From NCBI GenBank assembly GCA_003427395.1, contig BFEA01000002.1, forward strand, positions 3,161,292-3,225,291: DNA of 64,000 nucleotides, read 5' to 3'. The notes beneath the pieces were generated by a model. It did no database searches. It was not told the origin of the DNA and worked only from the letters and a program-made list of their open reading frames with translations. The translations under genes and the position numbers were made by a program. The stretch's first letter is position 1; each line of letters begins with the position of its first letter. The DNA is from Chara braunii (lineage: Eukaryota > Plantae > Charophyceae). Positions 7,043 to 51,264 of this stretch are shown here, one piece after another.

Positions 7043-7051
7043 CTCTCTATC

Positions 7052-7094
<43 letters not shown>
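7001..7094. repeat. (CT)n/(CTAT)n microsatellite
   Basis: Seen directly. Confidence 0.97.
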
Positions 7095-11866: not shown

Positions 11867-11897
<31 letters not shown>

Positions 11898-14733: not shown

Positions 14734-14777
14734 GACACATTCTCCTTGCAACGTATTTACCGTATTTTATGTGTTAA

Positions 14778-14927
14778 ACCACCAATACTTGGCCCAGCTA
14801 TCGGCCGCCGAAAAAAATAGAGTAGAAACGTTTCTAGTCGGATGAATTTGGTCGCTCCTGTAGTGGTCCGTACGTTTCCTAAAATCGTGGCTTGTTAACG
14901 GGCACGACTTCAGGAAATACTGGTGGT
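14778..14927. mobile_element. 150-bp TTAA-flanked MITE
   Basis: TIR accaccaRtac; closely similar to 56236-56385. Confidence 0.85.
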
Positions 14928-15719: not shown

Positions 15720-16015
15720 ACAGTTAACGCACTCGTAACGATAGTTATAGTTAACGCGCTCATAACGAAAGTTAACACACTCGTAACGAGAGTTAATGCA
15801 CTCCTAAAAACGCACTCGTAACCAGAGTTAACGCGAGTTAAAGCGAGTTAACGAGAGTTGACGAGAGTTAACGCGAATTAACGCGAGTTAACGAGAGTTA
15901 ACGCGAGTTAACGAGAGTTAACGAGAGTTAACGAGAGTTAACGGACTCGTAACGAGAGTTAACGAAAGTTAACGAGAGTTTTCATGCGAGTTCATGAGAG
16001 TTTCACGACAGTTAA
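15720..16015. repeat. 10-bp minisatellite (GTTAACGAGA)n
   Basis: Seen directly; related inverted units at 18148-18203. Confidence 0.9.
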
Positions 16016-16414
16016 CCTGCCGCTCATGGTCACGTAATAGCGACGAATAATTCATCACCTTGCACTCGAAAGTGAAACTAGAGTACACGCATTTGTCACC
16101 TTCTATTTTAAGAAAACTCACTCGGACAAGTTCTATACATCCAGAAATAGTTTCGCTCCGTACGGACGACCAATCTTAATTTCCTTTTCCTTTTTTTTAT
16201 TTTTCTTTTCTCAATTTCTTTTTCTTTTTTTTATTTCTCTTTTCTCAATTTCTTTTTCTTTTCTTCCCTTTTAGATAATAATAATAATAACGACCAATCT
16301 ACCTCTCCAAATCACATAAAATGAAGATTTAGATGGACAAAATCTGCGAGGCCCCACATCTCCGGGCGAACCCCCACGTTTAGTATTTCCCCTTCTTGGT
16401 TTTTATCTTTTTCT

Positions 16415-16575
16415 TAAGGGGCGACTGCCTTGAGATATGACCATTTTCAAACTGACTGGTCCCAGGTAATTCAGAATTACTCTACTGTGTTCATCTGGTT
16501 GCATCTGGATTCGAACTCGGGTCTGTATGTCAAACAGTTCATGGAGTCCTACCAGCTGAGAGCTAACGGGTAGGC
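16415..16575 (-). mobile_element. SINE family A, copy 5
   Basis: gggcgactgccttgagatat...cccaggtaattcag...catctggattcgaactcgggtctgtat. Confidence 0.8.
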
Positions 16576-16608
16576 CCGTTGGGTTTTCTTTTTTTCTTTT
16601 ATTTTTTT

Positions 16609-16717
16609 GTGACCCGATGGACCACGGACCCGATATTAAACTGAGGATCAGATATTAAACTGATCAGAACAGATACTACACTTGATCTATTTTTAGACAA
16701 AAGGCCGAGAAACGTAT
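16609..16717 (-). pseudogene. U2: U2 snRNA 5' fragment with A-rich tail
   Basis: Reverse strand atacgtttctcggccttttgtctaa(aaata)gatcaagtgtagtatctgttctgatcagtttaatatctgat...gtggtccatcgggtcac then A-rich; contains the branch-point pairing sequence GUAGUA. Confidence 0.9.
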
Positions 16718-16924
16718 TGGGTCCGTTGGTTCCACTTCCATTATTTTGCTAATTTGCTATTGTTATTTCGATTCCTTAGTTCTTAAAATCATGTTATGTT
16801 CTTTACTTCATTATTCCCATTACTTAATAAAGTTCACTTTCGTTCTTTTTTTCTATCGATTCCTCGATTTCTTATTTCGTACTCCAGTACTACATCGCTA
16901 TTGCTATTACTTTTATTTTTACAC

Positions 16925-17154
16925 TTCGGGCATTTCCACTTCGATATACGATCATTATCGCTGCATCTGGACTGCAAGTTGTCCCAAATGCAGCTACAAT
17001 GGCCAGCGTTCTATTCGAGTGCCGACGGTGGGACCTGACAATTTCGGTTCAGAAAACACTACACCAAATTCTGAATTACCTAGGGCCGGTCAGTTCAATG
17101 ATCAGATCTCAAGCCCTTCACCCTTTTTCAAAACAAAGAAACAAACAAACAAAC

Positions 17155-17196
<42 letters not shown>
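16925..17196 (+). mobile_element. Degraded CCGT-family MITE followed by a SINE A tail and poly(A)
   Basis: MITE interior catctggactgcaagttgtcccaaa; SINE tail ctgaattacctagggccggtcagttcaatgatc. Confidence 0.6.
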
Positions 17197-17197
<1 letters not shown>

Positions 17198-19960
17198 NNN
17201 NNNNNNNNNNNNNNNNNNNNNNNNNNNNNNNNNNNNNNNNNNNNNNNNNNNNNNNNNNNNNNNNNNNNNNNNNNNNNNNNNNNNNNNNNNNNNNNNNNNN
17301 NNNCCAAAAAAGTATTATTAAAATATTATGTAATTTATGTAAGAGGTTGACTCACCGTTCCCAATCCGAAGCCGACCACCCAAAACAACAGAGTCCACAA
17401 TTCTTCACCGGGTGCCACGTGGAAATTCCCTTCGGCACCGAGGTGGAGGGCATAGATGATGACGTCAAGGAGAAAGCCGCGGAGGAGAATCTGTCACCAG
17501 CGGCAGCTCCTCCATGGCAATCCCACTTGGACACTACTGCACGCGGAACCATTGTCGAGCCTCTCTTATCACAAAGGACGTCAGAGCACCCTGCACCTCC
17601 CGCCGCCAGCGTTGAAGAGACCGCTACCGCCGCAATGTCCATCGGCAAGCCAAGGCGCGAAACCATAACTCCTTCCATTTTGATTACCGGCATCTCCCTT
17701 CCCGATGATACCCTGTGCTTTTGCTCACCCACCTACTTCCGCCGCTACCAGGTATTAAACGGAAGAGTGCTAAGAGTTGGAGGTAGGAACGAGCACACTA
17801 TAACACGCGATGGGCAGGCAGTGTCGGTCAAATTGCGCAACGAATGCGCTCTCCTGCAATCCCACCAAACATCCGACCAATCATCCGACCAATCATTGAC
17901 CAATCATTGACCACATCAGAAGCTGCAGCGAAGTTAGTGAGGAGGAGATGGGTCGGCAGCAGCCCCTATCACTTAACTTCACTGCAATCCACGTCACCTC
18001 ATCTTCCTTCAAAAAGCTATCATGCGCGGCTGAGTCCGCAGCGCAGGCGATTACCGAACCGATCAAAGGGGGCCATTTCTCCCTTCACCTCCTTCCCTTC
18101 GGTACGGAAGAAGTGGATGGGAAAGGCATTCTCAAAGAGCAAACTGCGTTTTTACGAGTGCGTTAACTCTGGTTACGAGTGCGTTAACTCTGGTTACGAG
18201 TGCGATTACCGAACCGATCAAGGGGGGGCATTCCGATAGAGAGAACTGCTACTTCGTGACCATATTCACTACAGGGTGTCACGCGTACGAATTTAGGTAC
18301 GAGCCGTGTGAATGATGAGTGCAAGAACGACAAAAGAGTCAAGACACATCATTCACCATCGTCTCCTCTCCCTCTCCCTCTACCTACTTTGTGTCTCTCC
18401 CTCTCCTCTTTCTTCCTTCCTCTTCTTCCTCCTGCCAGCTTCTCCTCTTCAGGCTTTCGTTCACGTGCGTCCCTTCAGCTCCTCGCTCTCTCTCTCACCT
18501 GCTGGACGATGAACCGACTTACTGTGAGACTCTATTGGCGCGCTTGTGGAAATATAAGTAGGTAGGTACTGCGTACTCCACTCTCGCTCCACCGCACCAA
18601 CCCGCCCGCCGACAGCCTCCTTGGTCAATACCGAAGGGAGGACCGTTTCATCGACCACAAGAGAGGCTGCGGAAGGCGGCCGCGTTGCGCCAGCTCGCGG
18701 AGAGACTCGCAGAGAGCGAGAGACTCGCGGAGAGAGAGACTCAATAAGCAAAAAACACCTGGGGTAGATGTCGGACAGACGAGCGAAATGATGACACGCA
18801 CGCGCAGCACGCACGATGGCCTGCGCGACGAGATTTCTTCTCGAGAGCTTGACACGTGGATTGACTGGTACGGAAAGGGTAACACGTGTATAAGAACAGA
18901 CACACCGACAGACAGAGGCGTGCATGCCCGCCGAGGGCAGAGATGCACACAGGCGGCGAGAAAGCATCAGTCAGGAGGTTTGTGACAATGTACACACGCG
19001 TGTGAAAAAACAGAGCACAAGCAGCACTGATGATACAACTGCCCCCGGACTGTGCGCCCGCCCCGCGAAGGTTTGCGAGAGAGAAGACGAGAGGACGGCA
19101 ACGCGGCAATCCCGCCGGCGAGGACCGCCGCTTCGCGAGCGCCGTGTCACTCGCATGGCGGCATGTTTCGGCGCCGTGGCACCGGCCCGCTATGGCGTGC
19201 TCGGGCGAGTGTGGGCACATGCAGGCGTGTGCTCGAGTCGTGCTCGTCGCGTGCCGAGCGCACTTCGGCCCGCGGCGCTCGGCCGCACAAGCCCGCGCTC
19301 GTGCCACCGGCGGCGGAAGCAAAACCATTTTGTTTGAAAGGCTGGAAGGCGGAGCGAATTCAAACCCCGCTTTCCCTCAGAGGCATGTGAGGTAGAAGAG
19401 CGCCTATCATATGCCGCCACGTCGGCCACTGTACCTCGCCACTGCCAATTTCGGCCAGAATAACGGAAATGCGTGAGCGCCCAAATCCCACAAGCAGATC
19501 CCCGCCTCGCCACTCACGAAATGTAGAGCAAGGGTGACCGCATGTTCACAAACAAGAAAGATCGCAATATACATCGGGGGCTAGGTCCCACTTACACGAA
19601 TTAAGCGATTAAGCGATATTGACCGTAGATAGCAAAGATCAACGGCAAGATTCTCGTAATCCGTGCAAGTGGGACCTTGCCCCGGCAAGTTGGCAATTAC
19701 CATCGTTTGTCGTACTTGTGTGTTGTATTTGCGTGAGGGTGAGCTCGTGGATTGTAAGCCACCCGGCCCCGCGAAGGCGGGAAGTGACGCCTCTGCCGTC
19801 AGATTGATACGCCGAATGATCCTACGGGTAGGACCGAGGCACACGAGAACCAAGGCCATCTTTCTTGGCCTACGTTCGTGCGAACGACCGTATTCGCGTG
19901 GCTCTGGGGACCAGTTGTTTTTTTTTTGTTTTTTCTTTTTAATTTCAATTCTGTATATCA

Positions 19961-25644: not shown

Positions 25645-25710
25645 CAAGTGTAGTATCTGTTTTGATCCGTGGTCCATCGGACCACGTTTAAAAAAAAAAA
25701 AAAAAAAAAA
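25645..25710 (+). pseudogene. U2: U2 fragment, right part of the split copy, with poly(A)
   Basis: caagtgtagtatctgttttgatc-cgtggtccatcggaccac followed by about 21 A. Confidence 0.8.
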
Positions 25711-28700: not shown

Positions 28701-29770
28701 CCAAAGATTTCACGTGGTTCTTAAGCTCCAGGGTTGTGGCAGGAGCAAACCGAAGGCTAGATTTCTTTCTGACCTTCGGGTATTTTACTCAGTCCGCCGT
28801 TGTTGTCCAATCATACCGTGGGGGCATGTCAGGCCATAAACCAGTAACTATGGAGGCCAGAATAGCGAGACAGGCGAAGCCTAAGGGCCCTGGATACTTC
28901 CGACTAAACTCTGCAAATCTGGAGGACGAGGGCTGGTGGAACTGGATCAACCAACAGTGGATTTCCTGGAAACAGGCGAGAGTGGTTTTTGACTCATATG
29001 AACAATGGTGGGATGAAGGAATCCGCATCATCTCGTCGAAGTTTGAAGTGTTCTTATCGATCGCAGCTTACATGAGGAACACACAGGAAAGGAGGTTATA
29101 AGAGTGGATGAGGCGGAGAAAAAAACGAGGGGACACCAAATTTCGGAACTCACATGGGCAGAGGAGAGGGCAACCTGAATCAACGAATGGGAGTAGTACC
29201 AAGTGGAAAAAACAGTCCAGATGGGAGGCAATCCTACAAGAGAAAGGTGTAATTACTAGATACAGAATGACGAAGGAGTGTTTCCGCAGACTGCTGCCAA
29301 GCTGCAAGAGGGTCCAAATGCATGAACTCCAACATCCACACCTGATGGGGGTGTCGATAGCACACACAAACAAACAAGGATCTATGTGAATACGCAGCGG
29401 ACTACTTCAGGGATATCTTGACGACCCGTAAGACCTTTTGGAACAAGGAAACATACCTTATAAAATAAAGTAGCTTTTGGGACACGATCATTGTCAGGGT
29501 TACAGAATGGGGAAGGAGAGAGATGGACAGACCGATAACAATAGAAGAACTCAGAGAAATCATCAAAACCATAGCGAAGGGTAAAGTGCCAGGCGATGAT
29601 GGCTTACCAGTGGAGTTCTTCCTGACCTGTTGGGAGGTGCTGGAACAAGACGTGGTACAACCGTATAACGCTATCTTGACAGGGGGGCAACTAGGGGAGT
29701 CGATGACCAGATGAGTAATTACCTTAATGTATACGAAAGGAGATCGGTCAGAGGTGAGAAATTGGAGACG
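25711..29770 (+). mobile_element. Second L1/Tx1-clade LINE: 5' UTR, decayed ORF1, ORF2 truncated at the start of RT
   Basis: ORF1 zinc knuckle CTRCKWWFHTESDGC; ORF2 from ~28139 with GTWNVKGL, GGDWN, RRLDFF, KVPGDDGLP, ending at VRNWR where a satellite begins. Confidence 0.9.
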
Positions 29771-30840
29771 AGCCCGGGGGAGGACAACGGACGACAACAC
29801 GCACAGGGGGAGGACGACGCAGAAGAACACGCAGGAGGACGCACACAGGCACAACATCCTGAGTACGGATCAGGACCAGAACGGGGGGTGCGTCCAGGTG
29901 CACACGCGCGCAGCACCCGCGAGCATAGATCAAGATCGGGACGGGGGGGGCGCGTCCAGGTGCACACGCGCGCAGTATTAAGATTGGAACAGGTGGCGCG
30001 GACTAGGGTCGGATCGGGATAGCGCACACAGGCGCACAACCGGGGTCATGCGCGAGCACTCGCGCAGCCCCTGCACACGGGCGCACAACCGGAATCACAC
30101 GCACTCGCGCATCCCCTGCGCACAGACGCACGGTCGGAAAGCGTGCGCACACTCGAGCAACCCCTGCGTACAGGCGCACAGTCGGAGTTGTGCGCGAGCA
30201 CTCGCGCAGCCCCTGCGCACGGGCGCACAGTCGGAATCGCGCCCACTCGCGCATCCCCTGCGCAGAGACGCACGGTCGAAAAGCGCGCGCGCACTCACGC
30301 AACCCCTGCGCACAGTCGCAGTCGTGCGAGAGCACTCTTGCAACCCCTGCGCACGGGCACACAGTCGGAATCACTCGCACTCACGCATCCCCTGCGCACA
30401 GACGCACGATCGGAAAGCGCGCGCGCACTCGCGCAACCCCTGCACACAGGCGCACAGTCAGAGTCGTGCGCGAGCACTTGCACAACCCCTGCGCACGGGC
30501 GCACAGTCGGAATCGCGCGCGAGCACGCACGCAGTCCCTATGCTCAGGCACATGGTCGGGATCGCACACACACGCGCGCAGTCCCTATGCTCAGGCACAC
30601 GGTCGGGATTGCACACACACGCGCGCAGTCCCTATGCTCAGGCACACCCGCGCAGTTCCTGCACACACGCACGCAGCTCCCGCTCACACACGCGCGGCAC
30701 CTGTCCACACGTGCGCGACCCCTGCGCACAGGCGCGCGGTCGGGATAGCATGCGTGCACTCGCGCAGCCCTTGCGCACAGGCGCAAGGTCGGGATAGGGC
30801 GCACTCACGCGCACAACCCTTGTGCACAGGCGCACGGTGG
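29771..30840. repeat. GC-rich GCGCAC-based degenerate satellite
   Basis: Recurrent cccctgcgcac...gcgcacagtcgga units. Confidence 0.9.
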
Positions 30841-30849
30841 GGCGGGGCC

Positions 30850-32130
30850 CGAACGCTGGGTGAAGCGGGCCCTTTGAGTATGATCGAAATACCGGGCTGG
30901 GCGGACAGATCGTTGGAGGGCGGTTTTAGACACCGGGTGAAGCGGGCCCTTTGAGTGTGAGCGAAACTCCGGACTGGACGGACGGATCGTTGGAGAGTGG
31001 TTTGGACATCGGGTGAGGCGAGAGCGATCGAAAAATCGGACGGACGAACCTTTAGGGGGCGGTATAAACACCGGGTGAAGCGGGCGTTTCGGGTATGATC
31101 AGGACACTGGACGGACGGATCACCAGGGCACAGTCAAGACATCAGTGGAGCAGGCCTTTTAGGGCGCACACCGGCGAAAAGGGGTTTTGGGGTGCGGCTA
31201 GGGCACGCAGGGATACCCCGTTGGGGCGCAGTCGAGACGCCAGCGGAACGGACCTATTACGATAAAAGGCCCTTTTTGGGGCACAGTCAGGACACGGCGA
31301 AGCGGGCCTTTCGGAGGCACAGTTTGGACGTCGGTGAAAAGGGCCTTTTCGGGGCACAATCAGGACACTGCGAAACGGGCCTTTCGGAGGCANNNNNNNN
31401 NNNNNNNNNNNNNNNNNNNNNNNNNNNNNNNNNNNNNNNNNNNNNNNNNNNNNNNNNNNNNNNNNNNNNNNNNNNNNNNNNNNNNNNNNNNNNNNNNNNN
31501 NNNNNNNNNNNNNNNNNNNNNNNNNNNNNNNNNNNNNNNNNNNNNNNNNNNNNNNNNNNNNNNNNNNACAACGGTAAAAAGGGCCTTCTTGGGGCACAGT
31601 CAGGACACCACGAAGCGGGCCTTTCGGAGGCACAGTTTGGACGTCGGTGAAAAGGGCCTTTTTGGGGCACAATCGGGACACTGCGAAGCGGGCCTTTTGG
31701 AGGCACAGTTTGGACATCGGTAAAAAGGGCCTTTTTGAGGCACAGTCAGGACACTGCGAAGCGGGCCTTTCGGAGGCACAGTTTGGACAACGGTAAAAAG
31801 GGCCTTTTTGGGGCACAACCAGGACACCGCGAAGCAGGCCTTTCGGAGGCACAGTTTGGACGTTGATGAAAAGGGCCTTTTTGGGGCATAGTCAAGGCAC
31901 TGCGAAGCGGGCCTTTCGGAGGCACAGTTTGGACATCGGTAAAAAGGGCCTTTTGGAGCACCGTCGGGACACTGCGAGCCGGGCCTTTCGAAAGGGGACA
32001 TTCCGAACCGGGCCTTTCGAAAGGGTACATTCCGAACCGGGCCTTTCGAAAGGGGACATTCCGAACCCGGCTTTTCGAACGGGTACGTTCCGAACAGGGC
32101 CCTCCGAAAGGATACACGCTGAGACGGGTC
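30850..32130. repeat. ~72-73-bp satellite (dimer of ~36-bp units), spans an N gap
   Basis: ggcacagtcaggacactgcgaagcgggcctttcggaggcacagtttggac...aaaagggccttttt repeated. Confidence 0.92.
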
Positions 32131-32969
32131 ACTGAGCCAAACTCGGGGCTTGAAAGGGTGGCGAGCCTAATAACGATGGCGGATCCTACATTAGGCAATA
32201 AAAATCGGAGAGATTAGCGGTATGAGTTGAGGAGGTAATGGCTTGGCTCGATACGTAGAGAGAAGCGAATGTACTTGACCATATTTCGGCGGAAGATTTA
32301 TTTTGATTTTTACTCACCAAATCATTGAGAATAACCCCCCCTCTAGCTGTTTATATATACGACTGAAGACGATAGTCTATCCGCCCGGATTTTGGCGGAA
32401 GACTCACTGGCTTTGCGCGTCCCGTTGGTGATAGAAGCGTGGAGCCAACTGCAGAGTCGGATACTTACGCATTGGTCATTGAACCGCATGCACTACCGGT
32501 TGGAGCAGTTAGAAGGGAACCGCGAAGCTAAAAACTTACCTGGCCAGAGGGTTGCTGAGCAATGCAACTGCAAACAAGCATAACGTTACAGTTTACCTGC
32601 TGGCAGGATACAATCGCAGGGGTTGAAAGCTTACTAGCTGGCCGAGATACGGCTTATCCCGTTGAAGTACGGTAGCGGAGGGGGAATGGGACAAGCCACA
32701 GGGCGTGCGTGCTTGCCTGATTGTAGAGCACTGTTTTTTTTACTGTTTGAAGCGACAAGGGGGGCCAGTCATGTTGCAGGGGCAGACCAATGAGCAGCTC
32801 ATCCTACTGGATGAAGCAGTGTGAATCCCTTCGGGAAGAGGGTGCGAATCACAAGTTAGTGAGGGCTACACAACAAGTGACTGTGTGCAATTCGCCTGTT
32901 GCATGACCAGCAAGACCATGTTACTGTTTTGCCACAATGTGACAGGGGGCTAAGCTTGTTAAAGGGGGA

Positions 32970-34330
32970 GTATTGCTGCGATTTTGAGGAACATCGGGAG
33001 GCCAGCACTCAGCGGTTTGGCCTTGGTATGTTCATTGGCTGAGCGTTTTGGCCATCATTGCGGGACCCTTAGGTGACTGAAGATTGGAAGACCCTCTCCC
33101 GCGAGTCTGAGTGCAACCCCTTTGGATTTGAGAGACTTAATGAATTTATTTCTTCCCTTCTCACTCTAAGTCTGGTCTATTGGTTATGTGATGAAGGCGG
33201 CAGGCAGGATTGCAACCCGGATTCCGTGCCAAGGCCTCTGTGGGAGGTTCGCCCCACCGATTAAGGGAGCTCTGTCGGGACTTAGGAGGAGTTCTGGAGG
33301 CAGGGAACCGAGTGCTAACTTTCTGATTCCCTCTATAAACCCAATTACAACCCCTATCTGTACTTCTCTCTATGCATTGACTGAGTATGTTGCATGCACC
33401 TTATATTTGAAATTGGGTTTGACTTCAGGACATAACCCAGACTAATGAAAGGAGTGAGTGCACAACCTCAAGTTTCAGTTTTGTTGATTGTCTGAAAACA
33501 GATCGTTAAGGGGGGGGTGCATCAGGGGGAAGGTTGGGAGGAAGGCAATTTGCTTATGCTTGAACGGGTCTTATAGGGTCAGGCATTGTTTCTAAGACGA
33601 ATGGCCTGACTGCTGTGTTTTGTTCTGTTTTCTGAAGGGCCAAGCATTGTTTCTAAGACGAATGGCTTGGTCGTCATGTTTGTTTAATTTAACCGGGCAT
33701 TGTTTCTAAGACGAATGACCTGATTATTGTTTTTATGGGGTATTGACTGTGCAAATTTGGAGGACAAGATATTGTTCCTAAGATGAATGGTCTAGTCGCT
33801 GTTTATTTTGAGTAGTTTCTTAACAGTCTCTGGGTCTTGACTCAGGGTACTCTGTTTTTTTTAGTGCTGAGAAAAGAGGGTTGAACATTGTTTCTAAGAC
33901 GAATGACCCAACTCTCTTGGTTGTTTTATTCTGAGGGAGGTTCAGGTCACAAATTGGATATTGTTTCTAAGACGAATGGTCTAAGTCCGAGGCCACAAGA
34001 TTATAATATGAATAAAGGAATAAGAATTTCTATATTTCTATATCTATATGTTTATGAGAACAAGGCTAGCCAGATGTTGTTTCTAAGACGAATGGTCTTA
34101 CTATAGCCTTATCACAAATTAAGAGAGTATAACTAAGAGTTGTAATTGAAGGTAACTTGAGTTAGTTGAGTATTGTTTCTAAGACGAATGACTTAGTGAT
34201 ATGCCCAACGAAGAAAGAAGTAGTTGCGCAACCTGTTCATCTATAACCAAGGCAAAGAGTTGACATTGTTTCTAAGACGAATTACCTAACTCGATGCCCT
34301 ATGTAAACTGGGTATAAAGGGATAAATCAC
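32970..34330 (+). mobile_element. LTR-like long repeat, copy A (contains hairpin array 1)
   Basis: Collinear with 44990-46460; preceded by PPT-like aaagggggag (~32961); TATA-like ctataaa near 33333; right boundary not determined. Confidence 0.55.
33577..34300 (+). repeat. Array of 9 stem-loops with TAAGAY loop
   Basis: Loops at 33593, 33654, 33707, 33779, 33895, 33968, 34084, 34180 and 34273; core attgtttc-TAAGAC-gaatg. Confidence 0.9.
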
Positions 34331-34584
34331 TAAAAGATTGTGAAATATTATTTATCAAAGATGATTTGGGTTGGTGAGAGTACTTACCTTTGTAGTTTGA
34401 CCTACATGTGACTGAGTGCGACGACTACTTACTAGGAGTTTCAGTTTTATAGGTATTTTCTTTAGTTGCTCGCCACGTGCTAGAGCCATAGGAGTTAGTT
34501 TCAATTTCTGCATTTGTTGGGCTAAGTTTATTTTTGTTACTTAGGTCGACTTCTACGTTTTCTGGGATCATTTATTATACTTAA

Positions 34585-35030
34585 GCTTGTATAAATCTTG
34601 GTAAGCCACTTTCTCTGCTGAAAGCGCTGCTGAATTTTCTACAAATCCAAGGAGTTAGACGAAATTGAACTTTGAAGAGTCGAAGTTATTTTCAAATTCT
34701 AAACTTAGCTTTGTATAAATTTTTGAATCGCACTTTTCTAAAGGGAGTACTGCCGAAATTTCTGCAAAAGTAAGGAGTTGGTTGAATTTTGTCTTAGTTG
34801 AACTTAAGTTTATCTTTTGAGTTCGAATCTTAATTAGTATAAACCTAGGAAGTCTCCCTTTCTAAAGGGAGTGATGCCCAAATTTTTGCAAATTCGGGGA
34901 GATAAACAAAATTTTGACCTTCTTAAGTTAGAGATTATTTCTGTTTTCATATTTGAGTTTATATAAACTCTAGAAAAACATTTTTTCTATGGGAAACGCT
35001 GTCGAAATTTTCTTAGAGGAGTTAGGTTAT
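34585..35030. repeat. Four degenerate ~124-bp tandem units
   Basis: Each unit has tataaa...tttct...ctgc.gaa.ttt...ggag. Confidence 0.75.
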
Positions 35031-36740
35031 ATTTTGGCAGGTGACAACTCTGGCAATCCACCCTGAATAGGGGAGATCTTACCAAAGGTCTACCTTTTCT
35101 TTAAGGTACTTGCTTAGCGGTAGGTTCAAGTTTAGATAGTTAGAACGATTTTTGAGTACGAGCGCGACATGGAGATTGTTTTCCATAAACTTATAGATCT
35201 AGCTTGGGGTATTGACCTGTCTGTGTTACATGTCTTCTTGATCGTTTGATTCAAGATCAGGACTAGACTCAGCTTGATCCTACAAGGATCATCGTCTGTT
35301 ATCACTGATAACAGGTCGGTTGCCGATTCGTCGGTTTACGATTCAACTTCAATTCACTCTTGTCACTCAACCTAAAGGCTTAGCCCTGTGGTTTGAAATG
35401 TTTCATTGTGTTTTTACCCAAACTTTATTGAATGACCATTTAATAAAGGTACTGAATATTTTATTGTTGGAGCTAAGGTTGAGGTTTGTGTGGCTAAAGC
35501 AAGGGGTGTGAGCGCAGAGAATGGTTGAAGTTGACCCCGTGTAGTGCGTGGACTTTTGTTGAATCTTTGATGTAATTGCAAGTACGTTTGGTGTTTCAGA
35601 CTTTGAATTTGACTGTCTGCGATCATACAAATATCTATGACTGAGAGGAGTCCCACTGTGACTGTAAGAAGTGATCGTTCTATATTAATAACCCTCTATA
35701 TATCTGTGAATATATATGTCTTGAGTATTGTGTGCGGCCTACAGTGACCGTTGTCGGACCAAATACCCTTACAAGGGTATCTGACCATTCTTTCGCATTC
35801 GACACGGTGACGGCATCGACTACCATGACGGAGTCAGTCTGGAAATGGAAAGGGTGTGCACGCTTGGGCGTGACACTCGAAACGAATTCCTCGGCCATTG
35901 AGGTCGGGGCAAAATTTTGTTAAGTATGCGAGCGCGTTGTTATGACACACGTTGTGAAGGTCAGGATCTACAGTAATACCCTTCGACCGAAGAGGTTGAA
36001 GGGTCCATAGGGTTGATGTTATGACAAGTAGACCTACGATGTATGCTGAGACTTTATCGTAAGTTAGTCGGAATAAATTAATACGCGCCCCGGTCGTACG
36101 ACCGGAGCGATTATTGGTGTATGATTATCGGGGTTGAGGTAGCGCCCGATTGTTGAAGTTTGCTGGAGCGGTACCTGTATCCTTACTAGTGCACCGTAAG
36201 CGAGGTTGAGGCTCTAGCTCAGCCTCCCGTAGGTAGAAAAGAGAGTCGTCCATTGGGAGGTGACTTCCTGACCACATGACTACCCTAGCGACCGGTGCCT
36301 TCGTCCTTCTGCAGAAGGAGACACCGTTGCAAGTTCTGATATCGTTCGCACGGGGTTTGGACTGAGACTACTTGACCTAGTACCCGCCTACTTAACGGTA
36401 CTGGGCCTCTAAAAATGCCAACTTTTGTTTTCTTCTGCTCAACCTCGAGTACCCGGTGCATCTACCCCTCCTTAGTGTAGGTATGGGCTTGCCCGTCACT
36501 TATGTGTTTTCCCCCGGCAACCTTCAATGTCTCAGCCGCAGGTAAGTACCCCCCCTTCAGGCCTTTCGGTTAACTAGGTGCCCTTGTGGGACACACACAT
36601 ACACTCTGGCTGACAAGGCACTCAGACAGGTGTGCGGACCGGCAAGCATACACACACACGAACTTCGAAATAGGCTCATGCCGCTAGTTGGGCTGAGCCA
36701 AAGCTCTATAGATACTAGAGTTGCTCCCTTACTTTTTGAA

Positions 36741-36816
36741 GTGGGAGCTAGCTCAGTAGGTATTGGTGCAAGGCTATCATGCGACAGACCTGGGGATCGA
36801 ATCTGCCCAACCACCA
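36741..36816 (+). pseudogene. tRNA-derived sequence ending in CCA
   Basis: 76 nt, A-box tagctcagtagg, B-box-like ggatcgaatc, 3' accacca; stems degenerate. Confidence 0.55.
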
Positions 36817-36861
36817 AAGCGAACTTTCTTTTACGAGGAGTTTTATTTTAGTCTTCACCCG

Positions 36862-36942
36862 GTTTAGGATGGCCGGGGCTTGAACCCGCGACCTCAGGGT
36901 TAGCATTAGTTGTAGGTAGTTGGCCTGCATGCCACTTGGCAC
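36862..36942 (-). pseudogene. tRNA-derived sequence, convergent with the previous one
   Basis: Reverse strand gtgccaagtgg...aggtcgcgggttcaagcccc (T arm / B box). Confidence 0.5.
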
Positions 36943-38209
36943 GTTATGGTAGTTATCAGTTAGATTCTCTTATTTTCTTTTATTTTCTATTATTTATTTA
37001 TTTATTATTTATCTTTCTTTTATTATTTTATTTTCTTCTTTTCTTTTTGCCCGTGCTCGTTTCAGGTAATTTTGTTCTGATGTATATGTCGCGAGATCCG
37101 CAACAGATACATCAGAAAGGGGCACCCGATACCAACGACTACCGGCCTCAGAGTCGAAAAGGCCGCTTGATACTAGCTTACAACTCGGGAAAAGGGATGC
37201 GAGGCAACAGAGCGAGGGAGGGGCGCCAAGAAGTATGACGGCTCTTACCTCCTTCATCCCCCTCCGCTTTCCTATGCCTAAACCCCACATAAGCACATAA
37301 CCGTCTTCAAGCAACATGAGTGGAAATAATATGACGGCTTCCTATGACTTACTGAGATCAGGACTCATGCGCAAAGGACTTTCATTCCATATTTGATCCA
37401 TGTAACAGGGCGATTGCGGGAGCTCTGCCGGAGTTCAGGCGGAACTCTGGAGGCAGGGAACGACGAGGTACGTTACTTCGGCCCAGATGTTGTCTCATAT
37501 AGGCTATCATCGTAACAATTATTATAAGGGTAAGGGATCCATAAACAATAACTTTTCATGTCTTGGATTGCAGGTAGAGAAAAAGTTGGCTGAGTGGAAA
37601 CTGATTGCTTCTGGGTACAACAATCTTGTTGTGGGCATTGATTAGAAGTATGGATACAAGGTATCAACCTTTCATGATCATTCTCTTTATACTCCATCTA
37701 AACGATGATGGGTACCTTGATTTGAGCTTGTTATAATCAACTGTCATAGATCACACCGATCATTGCTCATTATGCATCTGATCCAGCATAAGTTCTCGAA
37801 CTAACAACGATTCAGGGCTTGAATGTCATTGAAAGCGATGACTTGATCCATAGATAAGACTTGTGTGGAGGTAAGAATAACAGGGAAAGCCTGCCTTAAC
37901 TCCGATGAGCCTTACGCTTGGTCAGTGATAAGTGCAAGGATCCTTGGACACCCGCCATATGCCCACCTAAGGGATGGTGATAACTCCCGCAGGTGGAGGT
38001 AATGTTGTACCTCGCGGGATCCCTAACCTGTCGTAGGGAGTCGCGAGAGGTATAGCACGCGCGCACCGTTGGAGTTGGTATTGCGTAAAGTGACAAAAAA
38101 AACTCCTGCGTGACACGACCGTGAGGTCCGACAAAAAACTACTTTGTATCTAGGGTGTGGGACCGCCGCACGTGACAACGTGATCCTGAACAAAGAAAAC
38201 ACAGACCCA

Positions 38210-41588: not shown

Positions 41589-42705
41589 GGCAACGGTGTG
41601 AAGGGGTGAAGATGGCGGGTGGGAGGTGGGAGGTAAAATGGAGCTCCTCTTTTCCGACTCGACAGCTAAAGGTGGTTGTTACGAAGAGTTTCAGAGTAAG
41701 GCGGGACGTTTACACTAGGGCTCAGGGTAGGCCGGTGCGGCCATCTAGGTGAGCGTTGTCGGCGCGAATACCCTTACAAGGGTATCCGCCCTGGTTTTTG
41801 CAGATGACAGGAAAATGGGTTTGATTGAAATAAGTCGTGCGAGGCACGACCGCGTCCGGGACCCGCCCTGGTTAAGCTAGTGGGTGTGTGGGCGCACAGT
41901 ATTAAGGCGCGCGTGTGATTTTTCTGATTGAGTGGGCGACCGGTCTAACCGACCTGCCCGGACCGTGTTACAGGCTCGATTAAGGGGTAAATGTCCGGTT
42001 CCTGGGCGGCACGTGCGACCTACGGTAGGGCTGGCACGCCGATAGGCGCGTGGGATGGCAACGGCGCGGTCCAAGCAGGTTGGCGCGGGTGCCTAGTGTT
42101 GGCATGCCGGTTGTAGGAAGGAAAGAGAGGGCCCAGGTTGTTTTTCCCGGGCCTAGGCACTGCGCTGCATCACCTTCTATTGGTCTTCGCGCAGGCTAAC
42201 TCCAGGCTTGGACTTGGCCCTATAGGTTATGGCATTGGAGTTTCATGACAGAGGTACGGGAATCGAGGCTTGTGGGCGACAACGCGAGCGCGAGTGGAGG
42301 AGAAACTGAGGGATTGAGGGTCCCGCAGGACTATCTTCCGTAGGTTTTGTAGGGGGAGTCCGATTGCAGGCCCGTTTCGCAAGGCAAAAGGGGCGCTGGT
42401 AGGTTCCGTGCCCCACCCCGTCAGTTCTCTTAGTTTTTTTTATGTTAATTTTTATCCGGGTCCTTTAATGCCTTTTCCTTTATTCGGGTTTCCTCCGGGT
42501 CTGGCAGCAGACCCAAGAGTTTAGCTTAGTGGGCACACCCTCGAACTGCTAGGTTACAGCCGTGTCGGGTCCAGGTGGGGGAGTCGTGACGGGGCAAAAG
42601 CCAGGTCCCTAGGCCCGCAAAACGGCGGTCCTTACATTCCAGTGGTAGGCCCTGTGCAGGGGCCGAGTGACCTTTGGAACGGCCGCGGGGCATTGCCCTG
42701 ATTTA

Positions 42706-42785
42706 GTCCTTCGGGACATCTGTTAAAATTGGAACGATACGTAAAAGATTAGCGTGGCCCTGCGCAGGGGTGACGTGCGAAGATT
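42706..42785 (+). pseudogene. U6: U6 snRNA-derived copy with mutated ACAGAGA box
   Basis: gtccttcgggacatctgttaaaattggaacgatacgtaaaagattagcgtggccctgcgcaggggtgac. Confidence 0.88.
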
Positions 42786-44989
42786 AAGGAGGGGCAAGGG
42801 GTATTTGAGCTCCTTACCTGTCGTCTGCGGGTTGCATCCGCCGTCCAACCGCCCCGCGGGTAGCCGGACCACTATCCGCTGCCGGGCCGCGAGTAGTCGG
42901 TCGTGGAAAGGAAGAAACTTGTGAGCCAAGTCCGAATCTGGGCGGAAAGTCGCACCGGGGGGGGGGGGGGACGGTCGGCGAGTAGCGGGGAGCCAGGCGG
43001 AGGGGCAGCGGGCACTGCGTAGAGGTACAGTCGGCAGCGGAGGCGACAGCGCAGTGGGGTCGAGCGCTTGGGCAGTGGCGAACAGGCGGTCAAGGGAGTA
43101 AGAAGGGAAAGGCGGTAAGGAGAGACAACAACCACTGTAGCGCCAGTATCAAGCCGAGGTAAGTAAGGGAAGAGGGAGAGAGTCAGGGCGTACCTTTGTA
43201 CTCGGTCCGTTCGAAGGAAGGCGGAGCCGGTGAAGAGGAGGAGACGAACGAAGTAGGGAGAGAAAGTAAAGTGAACCTGGGCGACGAATCACGCCAGGTG
43301 CATGCACAAAGAAGGGGGAGATGGCGGGGAGGAAATGGTGGGATCCGCCCGTTTCTTGACGAAATCGGAAGGGGAAGGAGCCTTTTCGGGGGTTTTTTAG
43401 TAAGGCGAGCACGGATATGAGGTTAGTTTGGTTGATTAGACAGTAGGATAAGAGGTTAGTAGGAAGAAGCCTGCGAGGAGCCCATGGTGGGAAAAGAGCG
43501 GGGGAGAATAAGGAAATGTTATCTCCCTCGTTTCTGACTTGATTCATATGGGGGAGGGCACGATTTAGACATTTTTTGACAGGGCGAGTTCGGGTATGGT
43601 GTTAGTTTTGGCGTTAGATTAGTGGAGAGGAGGTTAGTAACGAAATGGGGTGCGTCGAGCTATGGCCGACGTGAGAGAAAACGGAAGAAAACACATCCCG
43701 CTCGTTACTTAATGGAATCGAGCGGGGGAGGACTCAGAATGGGGGTTTTTGGCTATAGCGACCCCATTTATGCAATCAGAATTAGTAGTGGGTTAGTAAA
43801 TAAGAAGTTAATAGGAGAATAGTGTGCGCGGTGATGTCGGGAGTGGGAGAGAAGGAGAGGTTGTCAGTCAGTCGAGGAACTTGGGTGAAGAGGGGATTCG
43901 GGAGGGAAGACTTGAATTCTGAGTGAGTAGATTTAAGCTGCGAAGTGGGCCGGGCTGCGTGGCTGCAGGCTATGTGAGAGAGGGGAAGGGACAAAATCTG
44001 AACGAATCTTTTCGCGTTTTAGCGAAAGATTCATTTTGATAAAGGTGGTCAGTTCCTAGCATGCTGAATGTGCGACTAGGCGGCATACGTCTGGCGGGGA
44101 ATTTGATCGGATGCCCGCCGTACTCGGGGGAGAGCAGCTTGAGGGGAGCCGTACGAGTTGGGGACTTACCAATTGGCCGGTGCGTGGTTCCGATTACCGA
44201 AAGAAGTAGCCTTGCTCCGTATTTCCCCGGAGGTGGATGAGCGGCAATGCATCGCCCCTCGTGTTGGCGGAAGATCCATTCCGAGGTGCTGCCCGCTCCG
44301 GTTGTAGTGATCCTCCTGTGCCTTAGTCACCACTGGCTTTCAGACGAGCGTGGCCGTGGAAACGCTGCGCACGCAGAGAAAACCAGAAGAAGAGGGGAAG
44401 TGGTTGCTATGGGATTGAAGACCGCCAGCTAACCTGTGTGCAAAGCCGCGAGGGAGCTAGTCGTGTTGTTGAAGAGTCTGCCCGCTGGTCGGGCGTCACG
44501 GCTGTAGAGCCCAGATCTATGTGCCTGCTGCTTTCCTACTAAGCTACTGCTACATGTGCACCCAGGCGTCTTTGGTTCTGGCCAGCTGTTAAAGTATTGT
44601 GTTGAGTGTTGCGGTCTGACGTCACGAGCTGGTACACCGAAGAAGGTGGCTGCTGCAGGCAGTTCCGGGCTTGTTGCTGTGTGTTCCGCTGCCTATCTCA
44701 GCAACACTTTCAGCGACAGCCAATATTGAGCTTACTGTGTACTGGGCTGTTGGGCTGATCTGAGTACGGTCGTTTGGGGACCGTACGACTGCAGGTCCAC
44801 TTTNNNNNNNNNNNNNNNNNNNNNNNNNNNNNNNNNNNNNNNNNNNNNNNNNNNNNNNNNNNNNNNNNNNNNNNNNNNNNNNNNNNNNNNNNNNNNNNAA
44901 ACGAAGGTGTAGCGTGAAAGGAAGGGGGATGAGTGGAACTACAATGGGGTTGTTGCCGCAACCTGGAGGAGTGGTTGCAAAGGAGATTA

Positions 44990-46460
44990 TTGTTGTGACT
45001 TAGGGAGTCGTCAGAGGACCAACACTTGACAGTTTGACTTCTGAAGACTTATCAAGCTGTTAATCTTGGCCACCGTTGCGGGGCCCTCAGGCGAATCAAG
45101 ATATCAAGGCCCTCTCCTGCGAGTCTGAGCGCACCACTCTTGGATCTGAGAGTCTCAAATTTATCTCCTCCTACCTTTCTTACTCTAAGTCTCGTCTATT
45201 GGTGCTGAGAGGAAGGCGGCAGGCGGGATTGCAACCCGTAATCTGCGCCAAGGCCTCTGTGGGAGGTCGCCCCACCGATTGCGGGAGCTCTGCCGGAGCC
45301 TAGGCGAGGCTCTGGAGGCAGGGAATTGAAAGGTAACCTTTTGCGTTCCCTTTATATACCCTGGTATAACCCCCACTTGTACGACTTGCTATGTTTGACT
45401 GAGTGTACTGCATGCACCCCTATTTTGACGTTGGTCTGGTTGACAGGACACAACTCAGATTAAGTAAAGGAATGTTTGTGCAATCTCAGTTTCAGTTTTT
45501 GTTGATTGCCTGAAGGCAGATTGTGAACATAAGGGGTTGCATCTGGGGGAAGGGTGGGTGAAAAGTGGTTTTGCTTGAGCTTGGAAGGGTCTTATGGGGT
45601 CAGACCAGTTCCATAAGATTGGACGGCCTGACCGCTGTGTTTTATTTTTTGAATTGCATGGAGAGTCAGACCAGTTCCATAAGATTTGACGGTCTGATGA
45701 CTCTGAATTGTGAGGGCTTGACTGTGGCTGATTTTTCANGAGAGTCAGACCAGTTCCATAAGATTTGACGGTCTGATGACTCTGAATTGTGAGGGCTTGA
45801 CTGTGGCTGATTTTTCAGGGGCCAAACCTGTACCGTAAGATTGGAGGGTTTGGTTGCCATGTTTGATTGGGGTTTGTTTTGTTTCTTTTGTTTCTGATCG
45901 AGGAGGTCTGAGCAAGTCCATAAGATTGGACGGTTCAGCCCCCCTCTTGTTTTATTATGAGGGGATAATCCTTGCTGAGGGCAGGGTATGTCAATAAGAT
46001 TGGACGGCCTTGGACTCATGCCATACACAGTAGATCAGAGAGAAACGAACCTGGCAAAGGACCAGATGTGTTCCATAAGATTGGACGGTCTGGCCCAATG
46101 CCTCGCATATGTTGGAACCCAAAAGGTTAAATTTTGGCTATATTTTATATTATCCTATTTATGAACAGGCTAGTCAGGCATGGGTTCCATAAGATTGGAC
46201 GGTCTGGCTATAGCTTATCATGAAATGAAGAGAGTATAACTAAGAGTATAATTTAAGGTAACCCAGGGCAAGCTGGGCCTTGTTCTAAGATGAACCGCTC
46301 AGTCTTATGCCCAACTTTTGAATACTAAGCTCAGAGAAGTATATATAATTTGGATATTAAACAGTTCTGGCGACTAAGCCTTGTTCTAAGATGAACGGCC
46401 TAGTCATATGCCCAAAAGGAAGAGAGAAGTAGTTGTGCAACCTGTTCGTGTATACTCATT
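44990..46460 (+). mobile_element. LTR-like long repeat, copy B (contains hairpin array 2)
   Basis: Shares blocks with copy A: ccaaggcctctgtgggaggt, ctctggaggcagggaa, gtttcagtttttgttgattg, gagagtataactaagagt, gcaacctgttc. Confidence 0.55.
45598..46412 (+). repeat. Array of 10 stem-loops with TAAGAT loop
   Basis: Loops at 45614, 45680, 45759, 45836, 45921, 45995, 46076, 46190, 46286 and 46387. Confidence 0.9.
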
Positions 46461-48675
46461 GGCTGAGTCAGGCAAGAGAGAAGGAGTTATGGGTCAGGCG
46501 GCGAGATCACGAGCGCGACACGGCCAGTAAACTTGGGGTCTTGGTAACGTGAAGCGGCACGTGGGCAGAGGACTAGCCCCGGTTAGCCTTCGGGAATCCG
46601 TGTACGGGCCTCATTATCCCGGACGTCGGGTAGCCTATGGGTAGGATACTGGACCTCCTCCGCGCGCGCGTCGTTTGGGCTTATCCACCCCCGTTCCATT
46701 TTTGAAGGCCACCAGCTAATGGGGGTTGGGGTGAGTCCCCTTTTTGCGTTTTCATAGTTGGACGTTATAGTCCGTGGCGGCCGTCAAAGTCAAACCCCTT
46801 GATGTTCGACCGTCACGACAACTTAAAGCTGTCTACTCAACCCCTCTGCACAGGGTGCAGAAGAGGGTGTGGTCTCCAACCGCGCACGACGGTTGTCCAG
46901 CGTCGAGAGATTAACCCTCAAGGCGTGTGTCAGCCGACACCTGAGTGTCGAATGCGACCCTCGAAATTAACGAGGGCCGCACGATTATGGGCACGACATA
47001 ATACGTCATCATTGCGACTGCTTGCGTAGGTTTGCATTGCGAGTCGATAGGAGTTAGCCCTGCGTCCGCGCGGTTTTTTATACTAAGTCTCGCGCGCGGC
47101 GCCCATCCAATTTCCGCATCGGAAAGTTATGGGTTGGTTACCGAGGGACTAGGAGCGTTGTCGCGTTGTTCGTGTTGTGTCGTTTGTGCAATGTGTGCGC
47201 ACGTATGTATTGTTTTTGTGTTCGTAGAGTGGTGTGCGTGTGGTGTGTGGGATGCGTCCTAGTTGACCGACGTTGAGCCACGCTTGGGACTTCAGCCCCC
47301 CAAGATGTCGGCCCGCGTGCGGGTCCGATAGGCGTATTACCGCGCGTACGCCCTATGCTACAGTGAACGAGAAACGCCCTTGGCTGGTCCACCTCTACGA
47401 TTGCAACCGAGTAGCTTTCGTACTGTGGACTGGTGGCTAGACGGGGATACGCCCACCGAAGGGAGGTGACAACTCCCGTAAGGTGGAGGTAAGTCGTGCC
47501 TCGCGTAGGCCCTATCCTGTCGTAGGGGCTTGCGAGAGGTATGGCTGGCGCACTCAGCCGGAGCGGCCTAAGGAAGCTCCATTTGTGTGTCCGTGACGAG
47601 GTTGGTCCAACTCCTGCATGACGCGGCCGAGAGGGTCCCGCGTTGCCACGTGCGGTGCCGGACCGATGCGCTCGACAGCGTAGCGATTAGGTTCGCAACA
47701 GACCGTTGTTCGGCAAGAAAGATCAACTAGCGATGGGTGGGGCAGCAGTCGCCCAAAATCAAGTCATCCTAAGTTACGAAACACCTTCTAGCCGTAACTT
47801 ACTTTCACCGAAAGAAGAAAAGACAAAATAGAAAGCGTCAAGGTAAAATTTTCGCAACTTACCTGGAAAGGAAAGCTATGGAAGTGAAAAGGATTATCCT
47901 GATTACGGATCTTGCCACTTTCGAGCTGGTGAACGAGTTTTACCATACTGTGAGGTGACTGACTGAAGCCGACTGTAATGTTGCAGGTACGGAGAACGGA
48001 GCGGCGCCGCAGTCGCAGACGGGGAGCAAGCCAAGGACAAAAGAGCAGGTCCGACCAATGAAACCTTGCTAGAAATAGCAAGTCCTCGGTTATTTTTGGA
48101 CGGGCCCTCCCAAGGTGTGAATTTCTGCCTTGCGCCTTCCTTGCCTGATTCGGCCCAATACTGGCCACCCCTATACGGGGTTCAGTCCGATGGGACTGCT
48201 GCGGTAGTTCAGGCCCCAATGAGCCTTGTTGAAATAAGGGAGCCCAGGGGTGCCTCGGACCCCAATATTCAGCTGCCGTGTTATTCAAGCCTCCAAGAAG
48301 AAGAACCTGGTCCTCAGGAGTACCCTGGTGCGGATGATATGTCAGCAAGGACTGCCAATTTAGTAGCTTCTCCAGGGTAATTCGTAATCTTCCCTATTTT
48401 CCGAGACCACTGCAATTCTGCCAGTATCAGCCCCAAGTACGGCGACCATCCGACTGCCAAGTCGCCTAGTCCAATAGGAGAGAAGGGTCTATGCCTTCTA
48501 TGGTGGGATCCGAAAACCACACTGTAACTGGGCTGTAGTGTAGTGGTGGGATTAGACCCTAAAGGCCGAAACCACCAGCACCTCCACGTTTTTAGGCCGT
48601 TAACGGGGTGGCTGAATCGGTGCGCTGTGCGGGTTCATGTGCGTTTGGATCAGAGCCTCCCCAGAGGGGGCCTAA

Positions 48676-50118: not shown

Positions 50119-50179
50119 CAGACTGTTTCGTCGGACTTTCACCGACTCATCAGGAGGTTGAACCTGGACAGACAGTCTG
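50119..50179 (-). ncRNA. Type III hammerhead ribozyme motif, stem I slightly damaged
   Basis: Reverse strand cagactgtctgtc-caggttcaacctc-CTGATGA-gtcgg-tgaaagt-ccgac-GAAA-cagtctg. Confidence 0.75.
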
Positions 50180-51043: not shown

Positions 51044-51264
51044 ATGCTTTTTCTTTTTCCCTTTTTTTTTTTAGTTGCAACTTGCAACTGTATTGGACGA
51101 CTTGGTCTTTTTATTATTATGATTTTTTTAAACGATTTCGGTGATTTGTGGCAGCAGCAGCATCAGCAGCAGCTCGGGATTTTTTTTTTTTTTTTAACGT
51201 TCTCGGTGATTTGTGGCAGCAGCAGCATCAGCAGCAGCTCTGCTGAGTTCGTTGAGTGCTGCCG

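What the first reader, a model, noticed from the sequence alone, without database searches (positions are those of the whole stretch)
33577..34300. Array of nine RNA hairpins with an invariant UAAGAY loop and covarying stems
Seen: nine copies of ttc-TAAGAC-gaa (one variant) spaced 53-116 bp apart by unique sequence. The outer stems differ per unit but stay complementary (gtcagg/cctgac, ccaag/cttgg, ggcta/tagcc, gagtt/aactc), with a 5'-side U-rich bulge or internal loop. The array lies ~250 bp downstream of a TATA-like box in an LTR-like repeat. Inference: selection acts on structure, so this is not a satellite. It looks like a multivalent RNA scaffold of protein-binding hairpins (TAR/IRE/MS2-like geometry) for packaging, export, translation or a decoy role. 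This is my best candidate for an undescribed system.
Basis: partly seen in the sequence, partly recalled or inferred. Interest (0 to 1): 0.9.

Follow-up and report, generated by a model that had tools for sequence, protein, structure and literature searches.

The report
Nine-hairpin docking array in algal retrotransposon
A very abundant repeat in a stonewort alga, likely a retrotransposon, carries nine predicted hairpins whose stems differ but still pair and whose cores were rewritten together in a sister copy, so they likely form a repeated docking site that marks the element's own RNA, although no partner protein has been shown.

Summary
The array is real. Nine units lie at 33574-34294. A diverged copy at 45595-46408 has nine more distinct units (one is duplicated across an assembly N). 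Outer stems covary: 72 of 108 cells are Watson-Crick against 49 with swapped arms (0 of 100,000 permutations). Majority letters in relatives improve pairing at 11 of 14 stem sites. New here: spacers are orthologous unit by unit between the copies, yet the cores changed in concert (identity 0.90 within A, 0.81 within B, 0.57 between). The genome is Chara braunii-like and the repeat has hundreds of relatives. The array sits about 530 nt behind a primer-binding-site-like edge and about 260 nt behind a splice-donor-like site, so it is probably in a retrotransposon leader, not the LTR. The TATA-like box may not be its promoter. Poly(A) RNA covers the leader (+ strand) but barely the array. No Rfam match. 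Best reading (0.5): a multivalent, Psi/RRE-like protein-docking array on unspliced element RNA. Not shown: partner, functional strand, gag-pol, or that the UAAGAY hexaloop forms in copy A, where folding prefers another register.

The parts
33574..34294 (+). Array A: nine hairpin units (33574-33614, 33635-33675, 33688-33728, 33760-33800, 33876-33916, 33949-33989, 34065-34105, 34161-34201, 34254-34294). Each has a unit-specific lower helix, a U-rich 5' internal loop, TTC/GAA and TAAGAY.
45595..46408 (+). Array B in a diverged sister copy: ten hits, nine distinct. B1-B8 have a (T)CCA/TGG(A)-type top; B9 and B10 have a GTTC/GAAC top like A.
   Evidence: the duplicate B2/B3 spans the N at 45739
33048..33065 (+). 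PBS-like site (begins TGG) at the sharp edge of family conservation; copy B at 45066-45083
   Evidence: Loose ends pile up before 45066; depth jumps there. The tRNA match was not tested.
33048..33313 (+). Highly conserved, transcribed leader segment (copy B 45066-45332), likely a first exon
   Evidence: 76% identity A/B; first-mate-minus depth 25-143 against first-mate-plus 0-2.4 in X6 and X8
33314..33319 (+). Position of a splice-donor-like site: GT in copy B at 45333 (AAG/GTAAC) and in copy C near 37470; copy A reads GC
   Evidence: loose-end consensus behind this point shows AG-GTA in X5, X7 and X8; RNA depth falls here; no spliced joint was seen
33334..33339 (+).
   Evidence: no pile-up of read starts was listed there
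32193..33047 (+). Fast-diverging upstream block, weakly colinear with 43903-45065; candidate 3' part of the 5' LTR
   Evidence: score 59 against shuffles 34.7 +/- 4.8, and 164.5 against 120 +/- 14; single-copy depth at 80% likeness
34373..34388 (+). Small hairpin that would bury a second donor-like site (G/GTGAG), in one of the most conserved bins of the family
   Evidence: prediction only
34565..35040 (+). Second, unrelated tandem array: four degenerate 124-bp units, weakly structured
33048..36478 (+). Extent of the high-copy, non-coding repeat that holds array A
   Evidence: summed contig depth 1,900-230,000 against 14-17 upstream; no convincing Pfam domain in stop-to-stop frames of 70 aa or more

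Best explanation
The nine units are predicted RNA hairpins in what is likely the long 5' leader of a Gypsy-type LTR retrotransposon family of a Chara alga, and they likely serve as a repeated docking site for an element-encoded RNA-binding protein (Gag, or a Rev-like export factor) that would pick out the element's unspliced genomic RNA. Shown: the repeat is high-copy; lower helices differ per unit and covary; the loop letters are fixed; spacers are orthologous between two copies while the cores changed together; RNA covers the leader up to a donor-like site and then drops. Inferred: transcription starts in the upstream LTR and runs through the PBS-like site and a 265-nt leader to a major donor. 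Most poly(A) RNA is spliced there and loses the array, so only unspliced RNA displays nine sites. The lower helix would only position the core, so it is free to drift. The core (internal loop, short stem, UAAGAY) would be read by the protein and rewritten across units, likely by short conversion or template switching plus selection, when the partner's preference shifts. The two copies in the window are dead and decaying.
For: Swap test: 72 of 108 Watson-Crick cells against 49.4, 0 of 100,000 permutations; array A alone 37 of 54 against 23.9, 17 of 100,000. All 8 of 8 lower-helix pairs show two-sided changes; 0 of 500 shuffles reach 77% paired; RNAalifold finds the same helix. Of 35 listed differences in the arrays, 14 fall in modelled stems: 11 improve pairing, 1 weakens it, 2 are neutral (16% improving expected); none of the 35 is in a loop. 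Spacer orthology: six colinear A-B matches at z 6.6-20.5, A-A at most 2.5; core identity 0.90 (A-A), 0.81 (B-B), 0.57 (A-B). Conservation edge at a TGG-starting site with a fast-diverging but homologous block upstream. Leader-to-array RNA depth ratio 53 and 156 in X6 and X8 against 10 in the both-strand run X7. Non-chromovirus Gypsy elements have expanded non-coding regions with repeat arrays (PMC6317226, passages). Retroelements must export unspliced RNA through structured elements (PMC10309623, passages). Packaged BARE RNA is not polyadenylated (PMC3735527, abstract), so oligo-dT runs could miss it.
Against: No gag, pol, second LTR or target-site duplication was found for either copy, so the class rests on non-coding anatomy. 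The candidate LTR has no relative at 80% likeness although the array has hundreds. No tRNA match for the PBS-like site was tested. No spliced joint was listed. The array is almost absent from X6 and X8, and X7 shows 3-6 times more reads of the opposite orientation over units A1-A5. Library strandedness is assumed (dUTP), not checked on a control gene. G-U and A-C mismatches are about as common as composition predicts (18 against 13). The hexaloop is not the predicted fold in array A. Array B alone is weaker (35 of 54 against 24.8, 814 of 100,000), with B8 off register in that test. Seven of the 11 improving differences lie in the shared core; in unit-specific stem positions the tally is 4 up, 1 down, 2 neutral. 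Only the best-supported rows were shown (40 of 888 and 40 of 167). Units are related, so permutation counts are not probabilities.
Confidence: 0.5

Rival explanations
1. The hairpins dock a host protein (export, splicing or localisation factor) that reads UAAGAY; the core differences between subfamilies are tolerated drift spread by conversion.
For: The loop's first five letters are invariant in 18 of 18 units across both subfamilies while the top stem changed. CTE-type elements bind host NXF1 directly (PMC10309623, passage). The array lies between two donor-like sites.
Against: A fixed host partner does not explain why cores are uniform within an element but differ between elements.
Confidence: 0.18
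2. The signal works as DNA (single-stranded hairpins during reverse transcription, cruciforms, or motif arrays for an element protein as with VANDAL/VANC) or on the antisense RNA.
For: No G-U over A-C bias. Array reads in X7 lean to the opposite orientation. Canonical-looking donor and acceptor sites also exist on the - strand (about 34390 and 33495, read). VANC targets form tandem repeats that differ between related elements (PMC5735166, abstract).
Against: A duplex-DNA motif needs no covarying stems. The PBS-like site, donor-like site and strong leader RNA all point to +. Plus-strand folds are more stable in 14 of 19 windows, though G/T richness favours that anyway.
Confidence: 0.17
3. Neutral relic: a palindromic unit was amplified, hairpin-templated repair keeps arms complementary, and gene conversion homogenises the 20-bp cores; no function.
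For: Slipped-unit joints in genomic contigs show that array length varies. Both window copies decay by C>T and G>A changes. Little RNA covers the array.
Against: Compensated, unit-specific helices beside unpaired cores; loop untouched in 35 of 35 listed differences; orthologous spacers kept while cores switched with their pairing preserved.
Confidence: 0.08
4. The host repeat is not an LTR element (for example DIRS-like or Penelope-like) and the TGG edge is a terminus or a promoter exon; the hairpins bind that element's RT or recombinase.
For: No LTR pair or coding domain found. Chlamys PLEs are abundant in C. braunii (PMC8557442, section 9). Flanks before the edge are diverse (agreement 0.40 in X7).
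Against: The upstream flanks of A and B, and of expressed relatives in X6, are homologous, so the edge is not an insertion end. No hammerhead, terminal inverted repeat or split repeat was found in the element.
Confidence: 0.07

Closest known systems
Retroviral packaging signals (Psi): stem-loops around the PBS and major splice donor, e.g. MMTV (PMC11449360, passages); the paired GACG-loop hairpins of MLV (recalled)
   Same: Position behind a PBS-like site and a donor-like site; several stem-loops; repeated loop sequence; likely confined to unspliced RNA.
   Different: Nine homologous units over 720 nt with unique spacers, a hexaloop and a U-rich internal loop; concerted core change between subfamilies; binding untested.
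Export elements of retroelements: HIV RRE/Rev, MPMV CTE/NXF1, Cer1 CERV (PMC10309623, passages and start of abstract)
   Same: A structured, multivalent site that would sit only on intron-containing RNA.
   Different: Separate small hairpins, not one branched element; no Rfam match; no Rev-like gene found.
HIV TAR (features recalled)
   Same: B9 and B10 have a UU bulge, a 4-bp top stem and a 6-nt loop.
   Different: Different loop; not at the RNA 5' end; nine copies; most units have a larger internal loop.
Tandem arrays in non-coding regions of Ogre/Tat/Athila elements (PMC6317226, passages) and VANDAL/VANC target arrays (PMC5735166, abstract)
   Same: Repeat array in a long non-coding region of a plant transposon; element-specific repeat versions.
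   Different: Those are head-to-tail sequence repeats or DNA motifs; here only a 20-nt core repeats and the flanking arms covary.

Membership tests
LTR retrotransposon (Ty3/gypsy, OTA-like) leader | Two LTRs (TG...CA) with target-site duplication | tested here: inconclusive
A fast-diverging homologous block ends just before the TGG edge.
LTR retrotransposon (Ty3/gypsy, OTA-like) leader | PBS next to the 5' LTR, complementary to a tRNA 3' end | tested here: inconclusive
   Starts with TGG at the conservation edge. No Chara tRNA set was available (none in the window). Likeness to Asp/Glu-type sites is recalled only.
LTR retrotransposon (Ty3/gypsy, OTA-like) leader | gag-pol downstream on the same strand | tested here: inconclusive
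   No convincing Pfam hit in 32-50 kb or in six read-through frames of 39.2-41.8 kb. The copies end before any coding part, so this neither meets nor fails the feature.
LTR retrotransposon (Ty3/gypsy, OTA-like) leader | Dispersed high-copy repeat with a long non-coding region holding arrays | tested here: met
Retroviral-type Psi or export element | Located behind the PBS and the major donor, lacking from spliced RNA | tested here: inconclusive
   Position fits and RNA depth drops 53-156 fold against 10 fold in the both-strand run; no spliced joint seen.
Retroviral-type Psi or export element | Specific binding by Gag or an export factor; needed for packaging or export | not testable with these tools
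   needs binding and deletion assays
HIV TAR | Single hairpin at the RNA 5' end with a CUGGGA loop (recalled) | tested here: not met
   Loop UAAGAY; RNA extends upstream of the array; no Rfam hit.
Iron-responsive element | CAGUGN loop, 5-bp top stem, bulged C (recalled) | tested here: not met
MS2 operator | Four-base loop and one bulged A (recalled) | tested here: not met
Satellite or tandem repeat | Head-to-tail similarity along the whole unit | tested here: not met
   TRF finds no array A; inter-core segments unrelated.
Penelope-like (Chlamys) or retrozyme repeat | Hammerhead in the repeat, pseudo-LTR tandem structure | tested here: not met
   Hammerheads occur only at 50120 and 59004, outside the element; most Chlamys lack one, so this test is weak.
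Any Rfam 15 family | Covariance-model match | tested here: not met
   Best E-values 1.2 (upstream of A) and 5.2 (near B), none on a unit.

The most novel reading that the evidence does not exclude
The array is a self-recognition barcode. Each retrotransposon subfamily rewrites the cores of all its hairpins together, keeping the loop, the helices and the spacers, so as to match its own RNA-binding protein and to exclude sister and parasitic elements from its particles or export route: an RNA-level counterpart of the VANC/VANDAL arms race.
Probability: 0.25. Interest if true: 0.8.

Novelty: new variant of a known kind. Interest (0 to 1): 0.6.

Why it matters
How plant and algal LTR retrotransposons pick their own RNA among thousands of relatives is largely open, and their packaging or export signals are rarely defined. 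Here one short, repeated, covariation-supported motif comes in two natural versions, which gives a direct cross-binding test (A and B cores against A and B proteins). If a tight partner exists, the pair would also be a natural multivalent RNA tag like engineered MS2 arrays.

Tried and rejected
Viral contigs: 0 hits for either core 18-mer. No RNA holder was listed by word index; this is not evidence. Decayed coding sequence at 39.2-41.8 kb: no Pfam hit, no homologues, stop density like random; a profile-library search never ran because the queue was full, so the protein class of neighbour C stays open. A first loose duplex swap test was weaker (2,514 and 1,051 of 200,000) than the register-fixed one. 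Strand from G-U versus A-C: uninformative. A terminal inverted repeat or TSD at the TGG edge: none. HDV-like or hammerhead ribozyme in the leader: no Rfam support. miRNA-type precursors: helices are about 12 bp or less; no small-RNA data. Paper searches (listings only) showed no description of this motif. The C. braunii genome paper is not held; it, its supplements or repeat databases may already list the repeat family.

Full report
Setting. The window is a transposon graveyard: decayed LINE endonuclease and RT frames at 20.4-23.4 kb, U6 and U2 fragments and two type III hammerheads, and a WD40 gene at 51.3-52.9 kb resembling diphthine methyltransferase. Eight of the ten homologues of the LINE frame are Chara braunii proteins, so the genome is C. 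braunii or a close charophyte.

Observation. Nine TAAGAY units lie on + at 33574-34294, 53-116 bp apart. The 17-mer core pattern hits 9 times against 0.43 expected. A second array at 45595-46408 follows a 580-bp stretch 76% identical to the one before array A. A covariance model built from 18 units finds exactly these 19 places at E below 1e-7 and nothing else below 0.4 in the window; its own training units match by construction. B2 and B3 are a 79-bp duplicate on either side of one N, probably an assembly overlap, so B3 was left out of the covariation and identity counts. Rfam has no match on any unit.

Structure. Each unit has a lower helix that differs between units, an internal loop richer on the 5' side, a 3-4 bp top stem and UAAGAY. 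With the register fixed, cognate arms give 72 of 108 Watson-Crick cells against 49.4 for swapped arms (0 of 100,000 permutations); A alone gives 37 of 54 against 23.9 (17 of 100,000) and B alone 35 of 54 against 24.8 (814 of 100,000), with B8 two bases off register. All 8 of 8 helix pairs have two-sided changes, 77% of 144 cells pair (0 of 500 shuffles), and slid controls reach at most 44%. RNAalifold predicts the same helix unprompted. Units are related, so these counts are not probabilities. An independent check comes from relatives laid on the window: of the 35 listed differences inside the arrays (from the 40 best rows of 888 and of 167), 14 fall in modelled stems, and 11 improve pairing, 1 weakens it and 2 are neutral, against 16% improving by chance; none is in a loop. 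Seven of the 11 are in the shared core; in unit-specific positions the tally is 4 up, 1 down, 2 neutral. So the family keeps the structure and the window copies are decaying. One caveat concerns the loop. In array A the hexaloop closed by TTC/GAA has probability at most 0.18 in all nine units, because the loop can pair with the U-rich 5' side; in B it is at least 0.99 in 7 of 9. The hexaloop in A rests on the compensated top stem seen between A and B, not on energy. G-U (18) and A-C (13) cells do not reveal the strand.

The new point. The stretches between cores in A are unrelated to each other (z at most 2.5), but six of them match one stretch of B each, in order (z 14.3, 6.6, 7.1, 7.5, 17.5, 20.5). 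The cores behave the other way: 0.90 identical within A, 0.81 within B1-B8, 0.57 between them; B9 and B10 keep an A-like core (0.75) (alignment). The array with its unique spacers is therefore older than the A/B split, and the cores were then rewritten across most units of at least one lineage while loop and pairing were kept. Point mutation alone would have to repeat the same several changes in seven units; short conversion or template switching is more likely, and selection for a partner that changed its preference explains the uniformity best (inference).

Where it sits. Laying genomic contigs on 32100-36600 gives depth 14-17 up to 32854 and 1,900-230,000 from 33006 to 36478; the array bins have 4,400-18,500. 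The tool warns that this is no copy number; read roughly, it means hundreds of relatives. Conservation starts sharply at 45066 in B (33048 in A), at a site beginning TGG. Upstream of it A and B are still weakly colinear, and loose ends of expressed relatives in X6 resemble B's upstream flank. That is the pattern of a fast-evolving LTR end followed by a primer binding site (feature as described in PMC6317226, passages), not of an insertion end. About 265 nt further a donor-like site closes the conserved block (GT at 45333; GC in A). The TATA-like box lies behind it. Against this reading: no second LTR, TSD, tRNA match or gag-pol was found, and A's candidate LTR has no relative at 80% likeness. 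I put the LTR-leader assignment at about 0.65.

RNA. In two oligo-dT runs (X6, X8; 6% and 13% of each read) the leader has first-mate-minus depth 25-143 against 0-2.4 for the other orientation, which is + strand RNA if the libraries are of the usual dUTP type (not checked on a control gene). Depth falls to 0-5 right after the donor-like site and to 0-3 on array B; array A is at about 0-1. The leader-to-array ratio is 53 and 156, against 10 in X7, which has reads on both strands throughout. Nearly all reads come from relatives, not these copies. No spliced joint was listed. X7 shows an excess of the opposite orientation over A1-A5 (23, 30, 20 against 4.5, 5, 7.5). So + strand transcription is shown for the leader and not for the array. 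That fits an array confined to rare unspliced or non-polyadenylated RNA (packaged BARE RNA lacks poly(A): PMC3735527, abstract), but it also fits an array that is seldom transcribed.

Mechanism. Best reading (0.5): a multivalent docking array on unspliced element RNA for an element protein, working like retroviral Psi (PBS, stem-loops and major donor in the MMTV leader: PMC11449360, passages) or like an export element (Rev, CTE, CERV: PMC10309623, passages). Rivals: a host protein reading the invariant loop (0.18); a DNA-level or antisense role, including a VANC-like motif array (PMC5735166, abstract) (0.17); a neutral relic (0.08); another element class (0.07; Chlamys PLEs in C. braunii: PMC8557442, passages and section 9).

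Comparison and novelty. It is not TAR, IRE, MS2 or a satellite by the features tested (TAR, IRE and MS2 features recalled). Seven paper searches (listings only) showed no description, but the genome paper and its supplements were not available. The motif was not found outside this organism. Earlier AI notes describe same-loop hairpin arrays in other LTR elements; they are unchecked leads, and they suggest a recurring design, which lowers uniqueness and raises generality. Verdict: a real, covariation-supported, apparently undescribed cis-element; a new variant of a known kind; interest 0.6, mainly for the concerted core switch and the cross-binding test it offers.

Noticed in passing
window 34565-35040: Four degenerate units with an exact 124-bp period right behind the array; weak consensus structure.
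   Followed up: partly
window 34373-34388: A donor-like G/GTGAG is predicted to pair with an adjacent U1-like ACTTACC; ACTTACC-type words recur at about 32536, 34382, 42814, 44165 and 47860.
   Followed up: partly
window 33568-33573, 34095-34100, 45589-45594, 46302-46307: GTCTTA, the complement of the loop, stands just before unit 1 in both copies and behind A7 and B9; a loop-pairing switch is possible.
   Followed up: no
window 36399-36478: An 80-nt conserved module with strong RNA of the opposite orientation in X6 and X8, from one main relative with other flanks.
   Followed up: no
window 35744-35781 and 41749-41786; 37957-38062 and 47447-47551; 37411-37461: Short conserved hairpin modules shared among neighbouring elements; 37957 and 47447 are each followed by a + strand donor-like site; a fragment of the leader's donor end recurs at 37411.
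   Followed up: partly
window 50120-50174 (-) and 59004-59059 (-): Two related type III hammerhead ribozyme matches just under the Rfam gathering score, with unrelated flanks.
   Followed up: partly
window 12743-12847, 42706-42806, 53277-53332; 16578-16717, 25645-25685: Three U6 and two U2 snRNA-like fragments among the repeats; the one at 25645 is followed by poly(A).
   Followed up: no
window 29770-32111: A block of GC-rich tandem repeats (periods 47-49, 142, 77, 73, 29) interrupts a LINE RT and directly precedes the candidate LTR part of copy A.
   Followed up: no
window 36740-36900: Two tRNA-like, SINE-head-like stretches in opposite orientation (read by eye; ARAGORN finds no tRNA).
   Followed up: no
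window 51256-52884: Uninterrupted WD40 frame whose nearest Atlas clusters are named diphthine methyltransferase.
   Followed up: partly
window 46700-47060 and 35960-36200: Further strongly folding non-coding stretches (z down to -4.9 and -3.4).
   Followed up: no
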